From an uncultured Eubacteriales bacterium (GTDB lineage: Bacteria > Bacillota > Clostridia > TANB77 > UBA1234): a stretch of 64,000 nt of DNA. The notes under the pieces were generated by a model. It made no database searches and was not told the origin of the DNA. It saw only the letters and a list, made by a program, of their open reading frames with translations. Shown here piece after piece: positions 11,266-37,640 of the stretch. How positions within the stretch are numbered: the stretch's first letter is position 1; each line of letters opens with the position of its first letter. The stretch spans positions 90,636 to 154,635 of the forward strand of contig CAZEVD010000001.1 of NCBI GenBank assembly GCA_964515475.1. Direction: 5' to 3'. Position numbers and translations under genes: made by a program.

Positions 11266-13890
11266 GTGAAGAAATTAGTTGCAATAGATGGTAATAGTAT
11301 AATGAATAGAGCTTTTTATGGAATCATGAATGCGAAAATGCTTATGACTTCAGATGGTATGTATACAAATGCAATTTATGGTTTTTTGTCTATTTTGTTT
11401 AAGTTATTAAATGAAGAAAATCCAGATTATATTTGTGTTGCGTTTGATTTAAAAGCTCCAACATTTAGACATAAAAGATATGATGGTTATAAGGCAACTC
11501 GTAAAGGAATGCCTGACGAACTTAGAATGCAAATGCCTGTAATAAAAGATGTTTTGAGAGCTATGAATATTTCTGTTTTAGAAATGGAAGGCTATGAAGC
11601 TGATGATGTTTTAGGTACACTTGCTAAGTATGGTGAAAATAATGAAATAGATGTTTTATTACTAACAGGAGATAGAGATGCATTGCAACTTGTTTCTGAA
11701 AAAGTTACTGTTAGAATCCCAACGACTAGAATGGGTAAAACAGAGAGTACAGATTATTCACCAGAAGTTGTAAAAGAAAAGTTTGGAATTAATCCGATTG
11801 AATTTATACAAATAAAAGGATTAATGGGAGATACTTCTGATAATATTCCTGGTGTACCTGGTGTTGGTGAAAAGACTGCATTTTCACTTATTACTAAATA
11901 TAACAATATTGATGTTATTTATGATGCTTTAGATAAAGGTGAAGAGTTAGAAGGAATTAAAGGAAAACTAAAAGAAAAGCTTATTGAAAATAAAGAACTT
12001 GCATATTTGTCTAGAGATTTAGGTACTATTTTTAGAGATGTGCCTATTGATTTCGAAAATATAGATATTGAGAAAAAAGAATTTAATAATGATAAATTAT
12101 ATGAGTTGTTTATAAAATTACAGTTAAAAACTTTCATTGAAAAATTAAATTTAAAAGGAAATGATTCGTATAATAAATCAGAAAAAATAAATGAAGAACT
12201 AGAAATAGAAGAGTTTGATAAATTAAAGTTAGATGATGTGTCAGAAGTTTCGTATTACTTAGATGGAAATGAATTAGCTGTATATGATGGAAATAGAGCG
12301 TTTTATACATCTGAAGTTACTGAAGAAGAGTTAAGAAAACTTTTTGAAAGTGATACTTTAAAAATTGGATTTGATGAGAAAAAAGATTATTTAAGATTAA
12401 AAAAATCAGATATTAAAGCGAATAATTTAACTTTCGACTTAACTATTGCCGCATATCTTTTAGATCCTTCTAAATCAACATATAAACTAGATGATTTGAT
12501 TTTAGAACAATTAGGTGTTTTGGTAGAGAAAAAAGAAGAAAATGAACAGATAACGTTTGCTGGTTTTGGAGAAACAACGGAAATTAATAATAAGGATACT
12601 TATTGTAAGTATGCTAAGTATATTTTCTTGTGTAAACAAAAATATGAAGAAGAACTAAAAAATAAAAATGAATATAAATTGTTTACGGATATTGAAATGC
12701 CGCTTATGCAAGTGCTTGCAAATATGGAATATGAAGGTGTACTTGTTGATAAAAATATGCTTTCTGAATATTCAGTTTCTTTAAATCAAAAAGTTGAAAA
12801 TTTATCAAAAGAAATTTGGGAACTTGCCGGAACAGAGTTTAATATCAATTCACCAAAACAATTAGGAGAAGTTTTGTTTGAAAAGTTGAATCTGCCAGTT
12901 ATAAAGAAAACAAAAAGTGGATATTCAACAGATAGTGATGTTTTGGAAAAGTTATCAGAAGAACATCCAGTGGTTGAAAAAGTTTTAGAGTACAGAACTC
13001 TTGCAAAACTAAAAGCTACGTATGTTGATGGAATGCTTGCACTAATAAATTCGGATACACAAAGAATTCATGCAAAGTTTAATCAAACTGTAACTGCTAC
13101 TGGCAGAATAAGCTGCACAGACCCGAATCTTCAAAATATTCCAATTAGAACAGAACTTGGAAGAGAACTTAGAAAAATATTTGTTGCAAAAGAAGGTTAT
13201 ATATTTTTAGATGCGGATTATTCTCAAGTTGAACTTCGTGTGCTTGCTCATATGTCTGGCGATGAAAATATGATAAAAGCATTTAACGAAGATATTGATG
13301 TTCACACTTTAACAGCATCGCAAGTATTTAATACTCCAATTGAAGAAGTAACAAAACAAATGAGAAGTGAAGCAAAGGCTGTTAACTTTGGAATTGTTTA
13401 TGGCATAAGCGATTTTGGTTTAGCTGAGAATATTAAAATTTCCAGAAAAAAAGCTAAAATGTATATCGAAAAATATTTTGAAACATATCCTAATATAAAA
13501 GAATTTATGGATTCTTTAGTACAGTCTGGTAAAGATAACGGATATGTTGATACACTATGGGGAAGAAGAAGATATATCCCAGAATTAAAATCTAATAATT
13601 ATAATGTTAGACAATTTGGCGAACGTGTTGCAAAAAATGCTCCAATTCAAGGAACGGCTGCAGACATTATAAAAATAGCTATGGTTAATATTGATAAAGA
13701 ATTAGAAGAGAAGAAGTTAGAATCAAAATTAATTTTACAAGTTCATGATGAATTGGTTATTGAAACAAAAGAAGAAGAACTTGAAATTGTAAAAGAAATT
13801 CTAGTTAGAAATATGGAAAATGTTATAAAAATGAAAGTTCCTTTGGTAGCAGAGGCAAATTATGGAAAAACATGGTATGACGCACACTAA
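11266..13890 (+). CDS. polA: DNA polymerase I
   Basis: 5'-3' exonuclease N-terminus. Pol A motifs [21 protein letters not shown] and [12 protein letters not shown] start. Confidence 0.95.
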
Positions 13891-32278: not shown

Positions 32279-33265
32279 ATGAAAGAAAAAATATCAATTG
32301 TTGTGCCGATGTATAATGAAGAAGAGGTTGCAAATGAATTCTATACTAGAACGACAGCTGTGTTGAAAGAACTTCCTTATAATTATGAATTGATTATAGT
32401 AAATGATGGCAGTAGAGATAAAACTTTAGAAATAGTTCTTGGTTTTGTTGATAAAGATGAACATGTAAAAGTTATCAATTTTTCAAGAAATTTTGGACAT
32501 CAAGCTGCAATTACTGCTGGAATAGAAAATGCAGAAGGAGATGCGATAATAACGATTGATGCAGATTTACAAGATCCACCAGAAGTAATGATTGATATGA
32601 TTGCTGAATGGCAAAAAGGTTTTGATATTGTTTATGCAAAAAGAAAGAGTAGAAAAACAGATACATTTTTTAAAAGATTTACGGCAAATATGTATTACAA
32701 AATTTTAAATAAACTATCTGATGTAAAAACTCCTGAAAATGTAGGAGACTTTAGATTAATAAGTAAAAGAGTTCAAGAAGTATTTAAAAAATTACCGGAA
32801 AAAGATAGATATATTAGAGGGATGTTTGCTTGGATGGGATTTAAACAAAGCATCGTAGAATTTGATAGGCAATCAAGATTTGCTGGTGAAACTAAATATC
32901 CGCTTAAGAAAATGTTGAAACTTGCATTTAGTGGAATTATAGGTTTTTCAACAAAGCCGTTACAATTAATCATAAAGCTAGGTTTATTAACAACATTCAT
33001 ATCTTTTATTTTGTTAATATATGCAATTGTAGTAAAGATAATGGGATATACGACAAGTGGTTGGGCATCACTTATGGTTGCAATAACATTTATCGGTGGA
33101 ATTCAATTATTATCTTTAGGAATTGTTGCTGAATATATAGGTAAAATTTATGGAGAGGTAAAAGACAGACCTGTATATATAATAATGGACAAGTATTCAA
33201 GAGAGAATACCAAACATACTCCTAAGATGATTGAAAAATTAAAAAATCTATGGGGACAGTCCTAA
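32279..33265 (+). CDS. GT2 polyisoprenyl-phosphate glycosyltransferase (GtrB/ArnC-like)
   Basis: VVPMYNEE...IIVNDGSRD...DADLQD (DXD motif) and two C-terminal TM helices. Confidence 0.85.
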   Translation: MKEKISIVVPMYNEEEVANEFYTRTTAVLKELPYNYELIIVNDGSRDKTLEIVLGFVDKDEHVKVINFSRNFGHQAAITAGIENAEGDAIITIDADLQDPPEVMIDMIAEWQKGFDIVYAKRKSRKTDTFFKRFTANMYYKILNKLSDVKTPENVGDFRLISKRVQEVFKKLPEKDRYIRGMFAWMGFKQSIVEFDRQSRFAGETKYPLKKMLKLAFSGIIGFSTKPLQLIIKLGLLTTFISFILLIYAIVVKIMGYTTSGWASLMVAITFIGGIQLLSLGIVAEYIGKIYGEVKDRPVYIIMDKYSRENTKHTPKMIEKLKNLWGQS

Positions 33266-33331
33266 AAAGGACACCCTCAAATTTGTTTTTTGAACAACAA
33301 ATTTGAGGGTGTCCTTTTTAGGATTGTCCCC
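33252..33331. repeat. GC-rich palindrome C with 36-bp arms and one mismatch
   Basis: GGGGACAGTCCTAAAAAGGACACCCTCAAATTTGTT (33252-33287) pairs with 33296-33331. It overlaps the gtrB-like stop codon. Confidence 0.85.
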
Positions 33332-33488
33332 GTAGAGAAATCTTAATTTACATACAACATTCACATAAGAAAAATTATCCGTAAACAGAGCAAACATAAT
33401 AAATTGCAAAACTCGCAAATGCTTGCAAATACTAAAAGAGAACATAAAACATTACTTAAAATTTATCTGAAAATTTTGTCTGTTTTTC

Positions 33489-33516
33489 TTGAAAAAAAAT
33501 ATAAGTATTGTAGAAT
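33489..33516 (+). promoter_or_regulatory. Candidate sigma-A promoter upstream of nrdD
   Basis: TTGAAA, 16-nt spacer, TAGAAT. The leader would be about 170 nt. Confidence 0.3.
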
Positions 33517-33687: not shown

Positions 33688-35886
33688 ATGAACGTAATTA
33701 AATTAAAAAGGGAAAACAACGCATTAGACATCGCACTAATGGTTGAATCTGCAACAAAAACTGAAAGACAAGAGTATGATGAGTCAGCAATTGTTGATTC
33801 TCTAGTTAAAGAAACTGGCTGTGATAAAGCTTTAGCGAAAGAGATTGCTGGAATTGTTACAGAAAGATTGATGAAAGCTCAACTTTCAGAAGTTAGCACA
33901 TCATTGATTAGATCAATGGTTAATAACGTTTTATTAGAGAAAGGCTTAAACAAAGAATTAAAAAATAATTCAGAAGCTTCAATTCCTTTCTATAACATAA
34001 CAGAAATTATAACAAATGCTAACAAAGAAAATGGTAATACAGCTCACAATCCAGAGTCAATTAATTTGACACTTGCTGAGAGAATTTTAAAAGAATATGC
34101 GCTTAAAAATGTTTTTGATTCTGATATTTCAGCAGCTCATTTATCTGGAGAGCTTCATATACATGATTTAGGCATGATTGACAGATTTTATTGTTCTGGA
34201 CACTCTCCTGAGTATGTAAAAAAGAATGGTATTAGAAACATTCCTACAATACCTTCTAATTCGAAACCGGCTAACAGTGCAGCGGTACTTGCAAGACATA
34301 TTTGTTCTTTTACTCAATTCTTACAAGGACAATTTGCAGGAGCTATTGGTTGGGAAGCAATTAATATATTCTTTGCTCCATTAATTGCAGGAATGCCATA
34401 TAAAGATATTAAGCAATTAGCTCAAACTTTGATATTTGACTTATCACAACTTGCTGGTGCGAGAGGTGGACAAGTTGCTTTCTCAGATTTTAATGTATAC
34501 GTATCAGTTCCTCACCACTATCGTGAAGTGTTTGCTATGGGACCAAGAGGCAAATACATGGTTACAGATGAACTAAATGGTATTGAGTATTTCGATACAC
34601 AAGATGAAGCGAAAGCTTATTCAGAAGAAACAGGTTATAGAATTTTAAAATATAAAGATTATGAAAAAGAGTCTATGCTATTTGCTAAAGCACTTCTTGA
34701 AGTTGTTGGAGAAGGCGATGCAGATGGAATGCCATTTGCATTCCCTAAGATAAATCTTCATATTAATGAAGAATCATTCACAGATCCAAAAGCTAAAGCC
34801 TTATTAATGGTTGCGTGTGAATCTTCAAGCAAAAATGGATGTCCTTATTTCATATTTGATAGAAATGCATTTTCAGTTTCACAATGCTGCAGATTGAAAA
34901 TAGATTTCTCAGAAGAAGACAAGAAACTTATTGACACACCAGAAGAGTTAAGATTTGTTGGTGGACAAAACGTTTCAATTAATATGCCAAACATTCCATT
35001 AAAAGTTGGTAAAAATAAAGAAGCTTTTTATAAAGAACTTGAATCTAGAATGGAATTGGCTGCGAGAGCTAATTTACAAAGACAAAACTTTGTTTGGAAA
35101 CTTGCTAGTTTAGAAAATTCTCCATTAAGTTTCTATACAAACGGTATGGATGGAAAAGCTTATATTAGATTAAAAAATATTTCATATTTGATAGGTATTG
35201 TTGGTCTTAATGAATGTGTTTATAACCTAATTGGTGAACAACTTCATGAATCAGATGAAGCGTACATGTTAGGTCTTGAAATTGTTTCTTTCATGTATCA
35301 ACAAACAAAAGTATTATCTAAGAAATATGGAATTAACCTAAAACTAGAAGAAACTCCTGCTGAAAGTACAGCTGGTAGATTTGCTAAATTAGATATTAAG
35401 AAATATGGCGAGGCTGCATATCATAAAGAAAATCAATTTGGAGTTTATTATACAAACTCAGTTCATTTTGCTGCTGATAGCGATGTTGATTATGTAACAA
35501 GATTACAAAAACAATCTAAATTCCATACATTAGTTGAAGCTGGTAGTATGATTCATATTTGGTCTGGAAATAATGTTCCTAGTCCAAAAGCAATTTACAA
35601 ACTACTTGAAACAACTTGGTACAAGACAAAATGCGTACAATGGGTATTATCACCAGAGTATACATTGTGCCATGAATGCGGAACAAAGAGTAACGGATTA
35701 TTAGAACAATGTCCAAAATGTGGAAGTATTGATATAAGAGGCGTTACAAGAATAACAGGATACTATGTATTTATCGACAAGTTTAATAGTGGCAAACGTG
35801 CTGAACTTGCTGATAGACTAAGAGAAAATATTGATAGAGAGCAAGTTATAAAAGCTCAAGAAGATATTGAAAAAACAGCTAACTAA
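33688..35886 (+). CDS. nrdD: Anaerobic ribonucleoside-triphosphate reductase (class III)
   Basis: N-terminal ATP-cone. C-terminal Zn ribbon CHECG...CPKCG. Glycyl-radical region RITGYY. Confidence 0.9.
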   Translation: MNVIKLKRENNALDIALMVESATKTERQEYDESAIVDSLVKETGCDKALAKEIAGIVTERLMKAQLSEVSTSLIRSMVNNVLLEKGLNKELKNNSEASIPFYNITEIITNANKENGNTAHNPESINLTLAERILKEYALKNVFDSDISAAHLSGELHIHDLGMIDRFYCSGHSPEYVKKNGIRNIPTIPSNSKPANSAAVLARHICSFTQFLQGQFAGAIGWEAINIFFAPLIAGMPYKDIKQLAQTLIFDLSQLAGARGGQVAFSDFNVYVSVPHHYREVFAMGPRGKYMVTDELNGIEYFDTQDEAKAYSEETGYRILKYKDYEKESMLFAKALLEVVGEGDADGMPFAFPKINLHINEESFTDPKAKALLMVACESSSKNGCPYFIFDRNAFSVSQCCRLKIDFSEEDKKLIDTPEELRFVGGQNVSINMPNIPLKVGKNKEAFYKELESRMELAARANLQRQNFVWKLASLENSPLSFYTNGMDGKAYIRLKNISYLIGIVGLNECVYNLIGEQLHESDEAYMLGLEIVSFMYQQTKVLSKKYGINLKLEETPAESTAGRFAKLDIKKYGEAAYHKENQFGVYYTNSVHFAADSDVDYVTRLQKQSKFHTLVEAGSMIHIWSGNNVPSPKAIYKLLETTWYKTKCVQWVLSPEYTLCHECGTKSNGLLEQCPKCGSIDIRGVTRITGYYVFIDKFNSGKRAELADRLRENIDREQVIKAQEDIEKTAN

Positions 35887-35905
35887 TTAAGGGGGATTTT
35901 TAAAA

Positions 35906-36127
35906 ATGGTAAAAGCATATACAATGACAAATTGTCCTATGTGTGAGGAACTAAAAGCTTATATGAGAAACAGTCATATAGCTTATGAAGAAGCAAATGT
36001 GGATACAGATCCAAGAGCTAGAGCAGTAATGGTAGTTAACGATATTGAACAAATGCCTGCTGTAGAAGTTAATGGAAAACTTTATTCGGGAGATGTTGAT
36101 GAACTAAAGAATATTGTAAAGATGTAA
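35906..36127 (+). CDS. NrdH/glutaredoxin-like small redoxin
   Basis: 73 aa with a CPMC active site and thioredoxin-fold spacing. Confidence 0.6.
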   Translation: MVKAYTMTNCPMCEELKAYMRNSHIAYEEANVDTDPRARAVMVVNDIEQMPAVEVNGKLYSGDVDELKNIVKM

Positions 36128-36155
36128 TAAGTTACATTTATAAAGATGGTTAGTT

Positions 36156-36187
36156 AAAAGCGAGCATCAATTGCTCGCTTTTTTTAA
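36156..36187 (+). terminator. Hairpin plus T-run after the nrdH-like gene (possible partial terminator within the operon)
   Basis: GCGAGCA-TCAAT-TGCTCGC followed by TTTTTTT. Confidence 0.6.
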
Positions 36188-36238
36188 CGGACGACATATA
36201 ACGTTAATGTTATATAGAGCAGAAATTAGGAGGAACAA

Positions 36239-36904
36239 ATGATTAAATCAGTAATTTGGTCAAGTATGATAGATTATCCTGATAATGTTTGTACAACATT
36301 ATTTACTGGAGTTTGCAACTTTGACTGCGAATTTTGTTATAATAAAGGATTATTGAATGAAAAAGAGATAAATTTCGAAGATGAAATTTTACCTAAGTTA
36401 CTTGATAGAAAAGATTTTATTGATCATGTTATTATTTCTGGTGGTGAATGCACAATTCATCCGGATTTTGAAAAAATAATAAATGTGTTATATGAAAATG
36501 GATTTAAAATAGGAATACATACAAATGGATATGCTCCAGAAATCTTAGAGAAGATAATGGATAAAATAGATTATGTTGGAATGGATATAAAAAACGATTT
36601 TGAAAATTATGATAGAATAACAGCAACAAAAGTTGATGTTGATAAAATTAAAAAATCAGTGGCTATGATTTTAGATAGTGGTGTAAATTACGAATTTAGA
36701 ACAACAGTATATCCTAAATATTTGAAAAGTGAAAATGTTGTAAATATAGCTAAGTATTTAAAAGATGCTGGTGTAAAAAAGTTTGTTTTACAAAATTATT
36801 TTGATCATAATAAAACAGTTATACCATATTCTGCAGAAAAAATGAAAGAAATAAAAGCTGAGTGTGATGAATATTTACCAACAACTTTGAGGGGAATAAT
36901 ATAA
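36239..36904 (+). CDS. nrdG: Anaerobic ribonucleotide reductase activating protein (radical SAM)
   Basis: CNFDCEFC CxxxCxxC motif. Confidence 0.85.
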   Translation: MIKSVIWSSMIDYPDNVCTTLFTGVCNFDCEFCYNKGLLNEKEINFEDEILPKLLDRKDFIDHVIISGGECTIHPDFEKIINVLYENGFKIGIHTNGYAPEILEKIMDKIDYVGMDIKNDFENYDRITATKVDVDKIKKSVAMILDSGVNYEFRTTVYPKYLKSENVVNIAKYLKDAGVKKFVLQNYFDHNKTVIPYSAEKMKEIKAECDEYLPTTLRGII

Positions 36905-36921
36905 GAAAGGGACTGATAAAT

Positions 36922-37134
36922 ATGACAAATGAAATAATCGAAAAAGGATTACAATTAAATCCAAATATGAAATTGAACGAGGACCAGGAGCACGTGAAAA
37001 GAATATTAGTTGGAATAGAGAAAAAAGACGGACATTGCCCTTGTGTTATAACTGTAAATGAGGATACAATATGTCCTTGTAAGAAAATGAGAGAAGAGAG
37101 CAAATGCTGTTGCAAATTGTATATAAATAAGTAG
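36922..37134 (+). CDS. Ferredoxin:thioredoxin reductase catalytic-subunit-like Cys-rich protein
   Basis: CPC...CPC...CCC.LY pattern resembling FTR catalytic chain CPC/CHC motifs. Confidence 0.45.
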   Translation: MTNEIIEKGLQLNPNMKLNEDQEHVKRILVGIEKKDGHCPCVITVNEDTICPCKKMREESKCCCKLYINK

Positions 37135-37266
37135 ACATAAAAATAAAGCTAACTGAGAGAAAAAAGACGCTAATGCTTGAAATTTAGGCATTTCAGGCAT
37201 TAGCTTGTTTGTATGAGCCGAGCTAAAAAGATTCGAAAAAATAATTAAAAAAAGACTAAATTTTTG

Positions 37267-37295
37267 TTGACAATGAAGTCAATCTCTATTATACT
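37267..37295 (+). promoter_or_regulatory. Sigma-A promoter for the tRNA pair
   Basis: TTGACA (37267-72), 17 nt, TATACT (37290-95). Confidence 0.7.
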
Positions 37296-37312
37296 ATCAT
37301 TTGTCAGCTGAT

Positions 37313-37389
37313 GGATCTTTAGCTCAGTTGGTTAGAGCAACCGGCTCATAACCGGTCGGTCCGGGGTTCGAGTCCCTGAAGATCCACCA
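37313..37389 (+). tRNA. tRNA with CAT anticodon; Ile2 (lysidine)-like body, could also be elongator Met
   Basis: Cloverleaf with CTCATAA anticodon loop. Near-identical to B. subtilis tRNA-Ile(CAU). Encoded CCA. Confidence 0.85.
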
Positions 37390-37409
37390 CTAACTTAAAC
37401 TTAATAAAT

Positions 37410-37494
37410 GGGTAGATGGCCGAGTGGCTAAAGGCGGCAGACTGTAAATCTGTTCTCATCGAGTACGGTGGTTCGAATCCACCTCTGCCCACCA
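37410..37494 (+). tRNA. tRNA-Tyr (GTA)
   Basis: ACTGTAAAT anticodon loop, long variable arm, encoded CCA. Terminator hairpin at 37497-37526. Confidence 0.85.
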
Positions 37495-37640
37495 ATGAAA
37501 AGTCGTGCAAAGCACGACTTTTTTATTTGTGGAATCAGAGGTGAGATTCGAAAAAGAGCGTGAGTCAGACAAGCTAAAAGCGAAGACTAACGAACAAGAA
37601 ATAGTCCAGTGGACTATTTCGTAGCGATGCGGGTCGTAAG

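What the first reader, a model, noticed from the sequence alone, without database searches (positions are those of the whole stretch)
33688..37134. nrdD, nrdH-like redoxin, nrdG and an FTR-like Cys protein form one operon: probable ferredoxin-dependent disulfide relay to a class III RNR
Class III RNRs use either formate or a thioredoxin-type disulfide relay. In the thiol-dependent subtype, as characterised in a methanogen, the operon encodes an NrdH-like redoxin and a ferredoxin:disulfide reductase related to FTR catalytic subunits. Here a CPMC redoxin (35906-36127) and a CPC...CPC...CCC protein (36922-37134) flank nrdG. This suggests the same ferredoxin to FTR-like to NrdH to NrdD electron path in a Firmicute.
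Basis: partly seen in the sequence, partly recalled or inferred. Interest (0 to 1): 0.5.

Follow-up and report, generated by a model that had tools for sequence, protein, structure and literature searches.

The report
Mini ferredoxin-disulfide reductase beside anaerobic RNR
An uncultured gut Clostridia genome encodes an anaerobic ribonucleotide reductase of the thiol-using type next to a small redoxin and a 70-residue iron-sulfur disulfide reductase, a module also common in gut phages that probably feeds ferredoxin electrons into DNA-precursor synthesis but has never been tested biochemically.

Summary
In detail: nrdD (33688-35886), a CPMC glutaredoxin-fold gene (35906-36127), nrdG (36239-36904) and a 70-aa Cys-rich gene (36922-37134) are real, co-directional and conserved. 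(1) NrdD has the thiol-type site (Y168-C169, C400-C401-R402, E554), as in T. maritima NrdD, not the formate-type MGCR site. (2) The 70-aa protein is a minimal FTR-catalytic-subunit/FDR fold. Its model has pLDDT 94; the top 13 PDB fold hits are all FTRc/FDR; the family profile hits them at E 7.5e-8 to 4e-6. Comparative genomics adds support. The four-gene order is kept in 20 Clostridia species and the same four genes cluster in C. botulinum phage c-st. In viral contigs, every NrdD near a mini-FTR is CC-type. A mini-FTR lies near 40/80 CC-type NrdDs and 0/23 formate-type. Natural mini-FTR–glutaredoxin fusions exist. Corrections: the NrdD is NrdD2/NrdDh-like, not the methanogen NrdD3; the redoxin is not an NrdH-family member; a conserved terminator-like hairpin splits the cluster into nrdD-grx and nrdG-FTR-like. 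It is a new variant of the known FDR→redoxin→class III RNR scheme, without biochemical proof.

The parts
33489..33516 (+). Probable promoter of nrdD (TTGAAA-16 nt-TAGAAT with a TG extension), about 170 nt upstream of the start codon
   Evidence: Consensus scan. The -35 and extended -10 blocks are the only strongly conserved upstream blocks in an alignment of 21 orthologous upstream regions. No conserved NrdR box was found.
33688..35886 (+). nrdD, class III ribonucleotide reductase catalytic subunit, 732 aa. Thiol-type active site: Y168-C169, C400-C401-R402, E554. Glycyl-radical motif RITG691Y. C-terminal CxxC...CxxC Zn ribbon. Weak N-terminal ATP-cone.
   Evidence: PF13597 1e-133 and TIGR02487 above cutoff. 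Alignments to T. maritima, T4, P. copri and S. thermophilus NrdD structures. Residue positions.
35906..36127 (+). 73-aa glutaredoxin-fold redoxin with C10-P-M-C13 and a cis-Pro (MPAVE). Proposed disulfide shuttle to NrdD.
   Evidence: PF00462 8.6e-11. YruB family 50.8 bits and NrdH 33.5 bits, both below cutoffs. NCPMCEELK is invariant in the orthologues inspected. The gene lies between nrdD and nrdG in all 20 related species.
36156..36185 (+). Internal intrinsic-terminator-like hairpin (AAAAGCGAGCA-tcaat-TGCTCGCTTTT plus T-run) between the redoxin gene and nrdG
   Evidence: Sequence. RNAfold -19.7 kcal/mol, and an equivalent hairpin with different stem sequences in nearly all 20 relatives. The consensus scan did not list it.
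36239..36904 (+). nrdG, radical-SAM activase of NrdD (NrdG2 type), 221 aa, CxxxCxxC
   Evidence: TIGR02495 159 bits against a cutoff of 131; PF04055 4.8e-21.
36922..37134 (+). 70-aa minimal FTR-catalytic-subunit-like protein (mini-FDR). By alignment to FTRc, C39, C51, C53 and C62 are the predicted [4Fe-4S] ligands and C41/C64 the predicted redox-active disulfide. C63 replaces FTR His86.
   Evidence: Profile against PDB: only FTRc/FDR chains are hit. AF2 pLDDT 94.2. Foldseek top 13 are all FTRc/FDR, TMq 0.61-0.77. 8/17 close homologues hit PF02943. Purifying selection.
37169..37204 (+). Intrinsic terminator ending the cluster (15-bp stem followed by a T-rich tail)
   Evidence: Terminator scan and sequence. 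It is followed by a separate promoter (37267-37295) and tRNA genes.

Best explanation
The cluster encodes a self-contained, thiol-dependent class III ribonucleotide reductase system.

NrdG (radical SAM) installs the glycyl radical on NrdD Gly691. NrdD reduces NTPs using a cysteine pair (C169 with C400, next to the thiyl-radical C401) instead of formate, which leaves an active-site disulfide after each turnover. The 73-aa CPMC glutaredoxin-fold protein re-reduces that disulfide. The 70-aa protein is a minimal, single-domain ferredoxin:disulfide reductase. It would hold a [4Fe-4S] cluster on C39/C51/C53/C62 next to a redox-active C41-C64 disulfide, and would take two one-electron inputs from reduced ferredoxin to re-reduce the redoxin.

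Transcription starts at a conserved promoter (33489-33516). A conserved hairpin after the redoxin gene probably lowers read-through, so that less nrdG and mini-FDR transcript is made than nrdD and redoxin transcript.

Shown here: gene identities, the thiol-type NrdD residues, the FTR/FDR fold and homology, and the conserved, subtype-specific linkage.

Inferred: cluster binding, ferredoxin as the donor, the order FDR then redoxin then NrdD, and attenuation by the hairpin.
For: NrdD is thiol-type. YC and CCR align to T. maritima Y124-C125 and C329-C331. A Glu sits at the T. maritima E495 column, where formate types have Y or L. Subtype definitions come from PMC4493059.

The 70-aa protein belongs to the FTRc/FDR superfamily:
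- A1 profile against PDB: 7pwe 5.6e-4, 4tpu 0.01.
- Broad A2 profile: 4tpu 7.5e-8, 7pwe 3.5e-7, FTRc about 1e-6, and nothing else at E<=1.
- AF2 pLDDT 94.2.
- Foldseek hits 1-13 are all FTRc/FDR at prob 0.95-1.0; the next hit is at E=9.7.
- All six signature Cys are invariant in 99 diverse members.

Linkage:
- The order is identical in 20 Clostridia species, and tblastn with the window's two flanking genes found no match next to the cluster in any of them (one weak, distant match in L020).
- C. botulinum phage c-st has grx-nrdG-nrdD-FTR-like.
- 23/43 de-replicated viral mini-FTR lineages have an NrdD on the same strand in a roughly 9-kb locus, against 0/16 control loci.
- All 61 aligned NrdDs, the window's included, have the CC doublet at the finger loop wherever it aligns, and none has MGCR.
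- A mini-FTR lies near 40/80 CC-type viral NrdDs and 0/23 MGCR-type, Fisher p=3e-6.
- The 53 GenBank phage records with a mini-FTR are Bacteroides, Prevotella, Clostridium or unnamed gut-derived records. None is from the enterobacterial and vibrio phage genera that dominate the 2013 NrdD-carrying records.

FDR-redoxin partnership: natural fusions exist, namely P0046 (mini-FTR + PF00462) and PDB 7PWE (glutaredoxin/FDR fusion).

Precedent: FDR plus NrdH reduce M. barkeri NrdD (Wei 2015, known here only by title and through citing papers).
Against: There is no biochemical evidence for this variant.

The window protein itself has no Pfam hit, and FTR His86 is replaced by Cys.

The family is not exclusive to RNR. 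It stands alone in Riflebacteria-like genomes, crAss001 and Lak phages, and in about half of the viral lineages.

Most viral NrdD-linked copies have no detectable redoxin nearby, so the redoxin step may not be universal.

The CC-type versus formate-type contrast is confounded with host ecology (strict anaerobes against enterobacteria), and the control sets are phylogenetically narrow.

In the window the mini-FDR is paired with nrdG and separated from nrdD-grx by a hairpin.

Identifying the NrdD2-defining Glu with T. maritima E495 rests on my recollection of Wei 2014, which I could not read.
Confidence: 0.68

Rival explanations
1. The mini-FTR serves the activase, not turnover. It acts as a small Fe-S electron carrier that reduces the radical-SAM cluster of NrdG, the role flavodoxin or ferredoxin plays in E. 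coli.
For: In the window and its 20 relatives it directly follows nrdG, and sits on the nrdG side of the internal hairpin. P0029 also follows a 222-aa radical-SAM gene.
Against: All six Cys of the FTR disulfide-reductase signature are invariant, including the two non-ligand Cys. Formate-type NrdD systems also need NrdG reduction, yet 0/23 MGCR loci have a mini-FTR. None of the 53 mini-FTR phage records comes from the enterobacterial and vibrio phage genera that dominate the NrdD-carrying records. In phages the gene often abuts nrdD rather than nrdG. Grx fusions point to disulfide chemistry.
Confidence: 0.1
2. The mini-FDR reduces the NrdD disulfide directly. The CPMC redoxin is then either a parallel or back-up donor fed by another reductase, or has a different job.
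For: 38 of 45 NrdD-linked viral loci, and 40/40 in the second sample, show no redoxin detectable with my HMM. Several mini-FTR genes overlap or abut nrdD.
Against: The redoxin is kept between nrdD and nrdG in all 20 species and is present in phage c-st. FDR-Grx fusions exist. My Grx HMM was built mainly from one clade and may miss phage or host redoxins.
Confidence: 0.12
3. The mini-FDR is a general-purpose ferredoxin-dependent thiol reductase for cellular or phage redox homeostasis, and its position next to nrd genes is a genomic accident. NrdD would then be reduced through an ordinary NADPH/TrxR/thioredoxin route, as in N. bacilliformis.
For: Stand-alone copies occur in many genomes and phages. 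20 of 43 viral lineages show no nearby NrdD. NrdD2 enzymes can use Trx/TrxR (title of Wei 2014; Table 1 of PMC9176816).
Against: The same-strand linkage recurs in 23 de-replicated viral lineages, 20 Clostridia species and phage c-st, and only with CC-type NrdDs. The window's own flanking genes do not recur beside the cluster in the relatives.
Confidence: 0.1

Closest known systems
Methanosarcina barkeri class III RNR system (NrdD3 + NrdH-like redoxin + ferredoxin:disulfide reductase, Wei et al. 2015, Biochemistry 54:7019)
   Same: The same proposed electron path: ferredoxin to an FTRc-related [4Fe-4S] disulfide reductase, then to a small redoxin encoded with the RNR, then to a cysteine-using NrdD.
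   Different: The NrdD here has the Glu and the Y-C / CCR signature of NrdD2/NrdDh, not NrdD3. The reductase is a 70-aa single domain, whereas the solved archaeal FDR (4TPU, 173 aa) has an extra rubredoxin-annotated part. The last motif is CCC rather than CYC. The host is bacterial or phage. The reductase gene is hard-wired into the cluster.
[quoted passage not shown]
   Same: Six-Cys signature and fold. The C-terminal half is almost superimposable in sequence: CPCKKMREESKCCCKLY against CPCVPMRERKECHCMLF.
   Different: 70 aa against about 110 aa. The first spacer is 9 residues rather than 16. His86 is replaced by Cys. No variable-subunit gene lies in the cluster. The protein falls below the Pfam threshold.
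Desulfotalea psychrophila glutaredoxin/FDR fusion (PDB 7PWE)
   Same: A glutaredoxin-fold module partnered with an FDR module. It is the best hit of the close-family profile (E 5.6e-4) and a fold match at prob 1.0.
   Different: Here the two modules are separate genes with nrdG between them, and they are dedicated by position to an RNR.
Thermotoga maritima and Neisseria bacilliformis NrdD (NrdD2 / NrdDh)
   Same: The Y-C and xCCR finger-loop motifs and the Glu. A protein reductant is used rather than formate (PMC4493059).
   Different: N. bacilliformis uses Trx/TrxR/NADPH. The window has QCCR rather than SCCR, plus a dedicated redoxin and a mini-FDR. Overall sequence similarity to T. maritima NrdD is low (E 2.5e-17).
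Clostridium botulinum phage c-st genes CST074-CST077
   Same: The same four components in one co-directional block: glutaredoxin, nrdG, nrdD and a 63-aa protein annotated as 'weakly similar to FTR catalytic chain'.
   Different: The gene order is grx-nrdG-nrdD-FTR-like. It is a phage, the NrdD is longer (978 aa), and the redoxin has CTAC.

Membership tests
FTR catalytic subunit / FDR superfamily (PF02943) | Six-cysteine signature CPC-Xn-CPC-X8-CxC (four cluster ligands plus a redox-active pair) | tested here: met
   C39-P-C41, x9, C51-P-C53, x8, C62-C63-C64. All six are invariant in 99 diverse family members.
FTR catalytic subunit / FDR superfamily (PF02943) | Significant sequence homology to characterised members | tested here: met
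   The family profile A2 hits only FTRc/FDR chains in the PDB, at E 7.5e-8 to 4e-6. 8/17 close homologues hit PF02943, and longer relatives pass its 22-bit cutoff.
FTR catalytic subunit / FDR superfamily (PF02943) | The protein itself passes the Pfam gathering threshold | tested here: not met
   No Pfam hit, even with max_evalue 10. The protein is a truncated, divergent core.
FTR catalytic subunit / FDR superfamily (PF02943) | FTRc fold | tested here: met
   AF2 pLDDT 94.2, pTM 0.80. Foldseek top 13 are all FTRc/FDR, TMq 0.61-0.77, prob 0.95-1.0.
FTR catalytic subunit / FDR superfamily (PF02943) | Catalytic His between the last two Cys (CHC) | tested here: not met
   Cys63 occupies this position. 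The position varies across the mini family (C, H, R, I, K) and is Tyr in 4TPU and 7PWE.
FTR catalytic subunit / FDR superfamily (PF02943) | [4Fe-4S] cluster and ferredoxin-dependent disulfide reductase activity | not testable with these tools
   Requires anaerobic purification, UV-vis/EPR and activity assays.
Plant/cyanobacterial FTR heterodimer | A partner variable subunit | not tested
   No such gene lies in the cluster. The rest of the genome was not available.
NrdD2 (Wei 2014) / NrdDh (RNRdb) | A third active-site Cys next to the thiyl-radical Cys (xCCR motif) | tested here: met
   S398-Q-C400-C401-R402 aligns to T. maritima A-S-C329-C330-R331. The motif definition is in PMC4493059. The variant here is QCCR, not SCCR.
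NrdD2 (Wei 2014) / NrdDh (RNRdb) | An active-site Glu | tested here: inconclusive
   E554 aligns to T. maritima E495, where formate types have Y or L, and is conserved in 53+ CC-type NrdDs. That E495 is the defining Glu is recalled from memory; the source paper is not held.
NrdD2 (Wei 2014) / NrdDh (RNRdb) | Tyr preceding the universally conserved Cys (NrdDh) | tested here: met
   Y168-C169 aligns to T. maritima Y124-C125 (PMC4493059).
NrdD3 (methanogen type) | Third Cys present but no Glu | tested here: not met
   The Glu is present. Three phage NrdDs with QCCA and no Glu look NrdD3-like, but the window's does not.
NrdD1 (formate type) | Met two residues before the thiyl Cys (MGCR) and no third Cys | tested here: not met
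   The window has QCCR, against T4 MGCR.
NrdH redoxin family (TIGR02194) | Passes the family HMM cutoff; CVQC-type motif | tested here: not met
   33.5 bits against a cutoff of 85.75. The best match is the YruB family at 50.8 bits against 88.55. The motif is CPMC.
NrdG (TIGR02495, NrdG2) | Passes the equivalog cutoff | tested here: met
   159.1 bits against a cutoff of 131.15.
Single operon | Co-directional genes with no internal terminator | tested here: inconclusive
   The genes are co-directional with one conserved promoter and one terminal terminator. A conserved terminator-like hairpin lies between grx and nrdG. No transcript data are available.

The most novel reading that the evidence does not exclude
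The 70-aa protein would represent a large, essentially unannotated family of minimal ferredoxin:disulfide reductases: 1096 representatives at 50% identity, phrog_38239 'unknown function', usually below the Pfam cutoff. On this reading the family is the dedicated physiological reductase of thiol-type (CC-motif) class III RNRs in strict anaerobes and their phages. Gut phages would then carry it to connect viral dNTP synthesis directly to the host's low-potential ferredoxin pool. It could also be the unidentified protein reductant of NrdDh enzymes such as that of T. maritima.
Probability: 0.5. Interest if true: 0.7.

Novelty: new variant of a known kind. Interest (0 to 1): 0.55.

Why it matters
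How class III RNRs that do not use formate get their electrons in vivo is known for only two systems: Trx/TrxR in Neisseria bacilliformis, and FDR/NrdH in a methanogen. A hard-wired ferredoxin to mini-FDR to redoxin supply would extend the ferredoxin route to bacteria and to the NrdD2/NrdDh subtype.

It would also assign a function to a widespread 55-100-aa family that phage databases list as unknown. The family has been read as an auxiliary metabolic gene unrelated to replication, as with crAss001 gp5 (PMC6235969).

Finally, it defines the smallest known FTR-type catalytic core, which would be useful for mechanistic work. The four proteins are small and can be tested directly in vitro.

Tried and rejected
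- Direct Pfam and NCBIfam scans of the 70-aa protein gave nothing. Homology appeared only with family profiles.
- The key papers could not be read: Wei 2014 PNAS, Wei 2015 Biochemistry and Prakash 2018 JBC. The NrdD3 residue details and the position of the M. barkeri FDR gene are therefore unverified.
- Literature searches linking FTR to NrdD/NrdG or to phage RNR returned nothing.
I used a degenerate DNA pattern on viral contigs instead.
- An NrdR box upstream of nrdD was considered and rejected: the best matches are 11-13 of 16 at non-conserved positions.
- Rfam hits at 33246-33337 to miRNA families are below gathering scores and are artefacts of a long perfect hairpin.
- A prophage origin for the window cluster was considered. 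Neighbouring ORFs do not look phage-like by eye (they were not scanned against any library). This was not investigated further.
- My NrdG and Grx HMMs, built from the Clostridia clade, detect few phage activases or redoxins. Absence of those genes in phage loci is therefore not informative.


Full report
**Observation**

- nrdD (33688-35886, 732 aa) matches PF13597 at E=1e-133 and passes the TIGR02487 cutoff.
- The 73-aa ORF (35906-36127) is a glutaredoxin-fold protein with C10-P-M-C13 (PF00462, 8.6e-11). It scores below the cutoffs of both the YruB (50.8 bits against 88.6) and NrdH (33.5 against 85.8) families.
- nrdG (36239-36904) passes the NrdG2 equivalog cutoff.
- The 70-aa ORF (36922-37134) reads CPC-x9-CPC-x8-CCC and has no Pfam or NCBIfam hit of its own.
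- The 70-aa ORF is nevertheless a real gene. Orthologues differ at few non-synonymous sites (pN 0.04-0.17) while synonymous sites are near saturation, and dN/dS is <= 0.14 where computable.

**Is the 70-aa protein FTR-like?**

Yes.
- With the single sequence, the only PDB chains reached at E<=10 are FTR catalytic chains, aligned on CPCKKMREESKCCCKLY against CPCVPMRERKECHCMLF.
- A profile of 17 close homologues (A1) reaches the Desulfotalea glutaredoxin/FDR fusion 7PWE (E=5.6e-4) and the Methanosarcina acetivorans FDR 4TPU (E=0.01) over nearly the whole length. 8 of the 17 members hit PF02943 individually.
- An exhaustive HMM search found 1096 representatives (E<=1e-3), mostly 55-100 aa. Their motif is CPC-x9/11-CPC-x8-C[C/H/R/I/K]C.
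- A 99-sequence profile of these (A2) hits every FTRc/FDR structure at E=7.5e-8 to 4e-6, and nothing else at E<=1.
- The AlphaFold model is confident (pLDDT 94.2, pTM 0.80). Its 13 best Foldseek matches in the PDB are all FTRc or FDR chains (prob 0.95-1.0, TMq 0.61-0.77), after which the list drops to E=9.7.
- The six signature cysteines are invariant family-wide. The seventh, C63, occupies the FTR His86 position, which is variable in this family.
- The protein is therefore a minimal FTRc core. It lacks the long first loop, the termini, any variable subunit and any rubredoxin domain.

**Which NrdD subtype?**

PMC4493059 states three things. T. maritima NrdD carries 328-SCCR-331 where T4 has 288-MGCR-291. 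Tyr124-Cys125 is characteristic of subclass NrdDh, where T4 has Asn78-Cys79. In Wei's scheme NrdD2 has a third Cys plus a Glu, NrdD3 has the third Cys without the Glu, and NrdD1 has neither.

HMMER alignments place the window's residues as follows:
- rfY168-C169sghs on T. maritima mpY124-C125fayt.
- svsqC400-C401-R402l on avasC329-C330-R331l.
- E554 (LKLEETPAE) on E495 (FNIEQVPAE). The formate-type structures have Tyr (T4, S. thermophilus) or Leu (P. copri) at that column.

The enzyme is therefore thiol-type and NrdD2/NrdDh-like, with a QCCR variant. It is not the NrdD3 of the methanogen precedent. That E495 is the defining Glu is my recollection of Wei 2014, which is not held.

**Operon structure**

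Alignment of 21 orthologous upstream regions shows one conserved promoter, TTGAAA ... TG-TAnAAT, at window 33489-33516, and no conserved NrdR box.

A strong terminator (37169-37204) follows the 70-aa gene. Beyond it lie a separate promoter, tRNA-Met, tRNA-Tyr and another terminator.

Between the redoxin gene and nrdG there is a GC-rich hairpin with a T-run (36156-36185, -19.7 kcal/mol). Equivalent hairpins with different stem sequences occur at the same place in nearly all relatives. The cluster is therefore organised as nrdD-redoxin | hairpin | nrdG-miniFDR. Whether it is one attenuated transcript or two is open.

**Comparative genomics**

- The close CCC-type family is found in 24 species genomes. 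Twenty are uncultured gut or rumen Clostridia ('Eubacteriales') MAGs. All twenty have the order nrdD-redoxin-nrdG-miniFDR. tblastn with the window's two flanking genes found no match next to the cluster in any of them; the only hit is a weak, distant one in L020.
- Four Riflebacteria-like or unclassified genomes have a stand-alone copy.
104 of them encode a validated family member.
- After de-replication at 70% identity there are 43 viral lineages. 23 have an NrdD on the same strand within the roughly 9-kb locus, and 11 of those are within 600 nt. None of 16 false-positive control loci has an NrdD.
- Every one of the 61 aligned NrdDs in this set, the window's included, has the CC doublet wherever the finger loop aligns. 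53 show the full Y-C/[SQM]CCR/Glu signature, three are NrdD3-like (QCCA, no Glu), and the rest are fragments. None has MGCR.
- Conversely, 40 of 80 independently sampled SCCR-type viral NrdD loci have a mini-FDR within 6 kb on the same strand. None of 23 T4-like MGCR loci does. Fisher p=3.3e-6.
- In GenBank phages, 2013 records carry an NrdD, mostly from phages of enterobacteria and vibrios. The 53 records with a detectable mini-FDR are crAss001-like phages, Lak megaphages, C. botulinum phages and unnamed gut-derived records.
- Phage c-st has glutaredoxin-nrdG-nrdD-'weakly similar to FTR catalytic chain' as consecutive genes.
- Natural fusions of the mini-FDR domain with a glutaredoxin domain exist: P0046 and PDB 7PWE.

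**Interpretation**

The best-supported mechanism is a ferredoxin to mini-FDR to CPMC redoxin to NrdD disulfide relay, with NrdG as the activase.

The strongest discriminator against the idea that the mini-FDR serves NrdG is its restriction to cysteine-using NrdDs, since formate-type systems need NrdG reduction just as much.

Caveats:
- That contrast is confounded with host ecology, and the control sets are phylogenetically narrow.
- About half of the family's lineages are not next to an NrdD, including crAss001 gp5 in a tRNA array and the Lak phages. The module can therefore serve other partners.
- Most phage copies lack a detectable dedicated redoxin.
- Nothing has been shown biochemically for this variant.

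**Comparison with the known**

The scheme itself is known from M. barkeri (Wei 2015), cited. This case differs in several ways: the NrdD subtype, the domain architecture and size of the reductase, the residue at the His86 position, the hard-wiring of the reductase gene into the cluster, and the taxonomic range (bacteria and phages).

PHROGs lists the family (phrog_38239) as 'unknown function'. The crAss001 paper treats its copy as an auxiliary metabolic gene unrelated to replication. I found no paper linking FTR-like genes to NrdD in bacteria or phages, though three key papers could not be read.

I rate it a new variant of a known kind and of moderate interest.

Noticed in passing
window 33246-33337: A long, nearly perfect inverted repeat lies immediately after the upstream glycosyltransferase gene, which ends at 33265. 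It gives below-threshold Rfam hits to several miRNA precursor families on both strands. It is most likely a bidirectional terminator, and the hits are artefacts of the hairpin.
   Followed up: partly
window 37267-37523: A separate small transcription unit lies just downstream of the cluster. It has a near-consensus promoter (TTGACA-17-TATACT, 37267-37295), tRNA-Met(CAT) at 37313-37389, tRNA-Tyr(GTA) at 37410-37494, and a terminator at 37497-37523.
   Followed up: partly
L151 (Bacteroides phage crAss001) 2271-2468; L152 and L153 (Lak megaphages) about 11956-12177: The mini-FTR family is present in crAss001-like phages (gp5, embedded in the phage tRNA array) and in Prevotella Lak megaphages. In both, no NrdD lies within about 6-12 kb, so its partner there is unknown.
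   Followed up: partly
L127, L054, L044 (viral contigs): Three phage NrdDs directly adjacent to mini-FTR genes have a QCCA finger loop and Ser or Ala instead of the Glu. The two with an aligned N-terminus (L127, L054) have F-C instead of Y-C. This is an NrdD3-like residue pattern (third Cys, no Glu) found outside methanogens.
   Followed up: no
P0043 (151 aa), P0046 (127 aa): There are unusual fusions of the mini-FTR domain. P0043 has an N-terminal SpoIIID DNA-binding domain (PF12116, 3e-18) fused to PF02943. P0046 has the mini-FTR fused to a glutaredoxin domain.
   Followed up: partly
L025-L028 (metagenome contigs carrying P0027): A 103-aa CCC-type relative sits in a phage-like replication module (DnaB helicase, HNH, holin, M23 peptidase) with no nrd gene among those called in the locus.
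   Followed up: no
L150 (phage c-st) 4020-6956: The c-st NrdD is 978 aa, much longer than typical NrdDs (about 600-730 aa), which suggests an insertion or an intein. The RNR/mini-FTR block lies about 2 kb from the botulinum neurotoxin/hemagglutinin locus.
   Followed up: no
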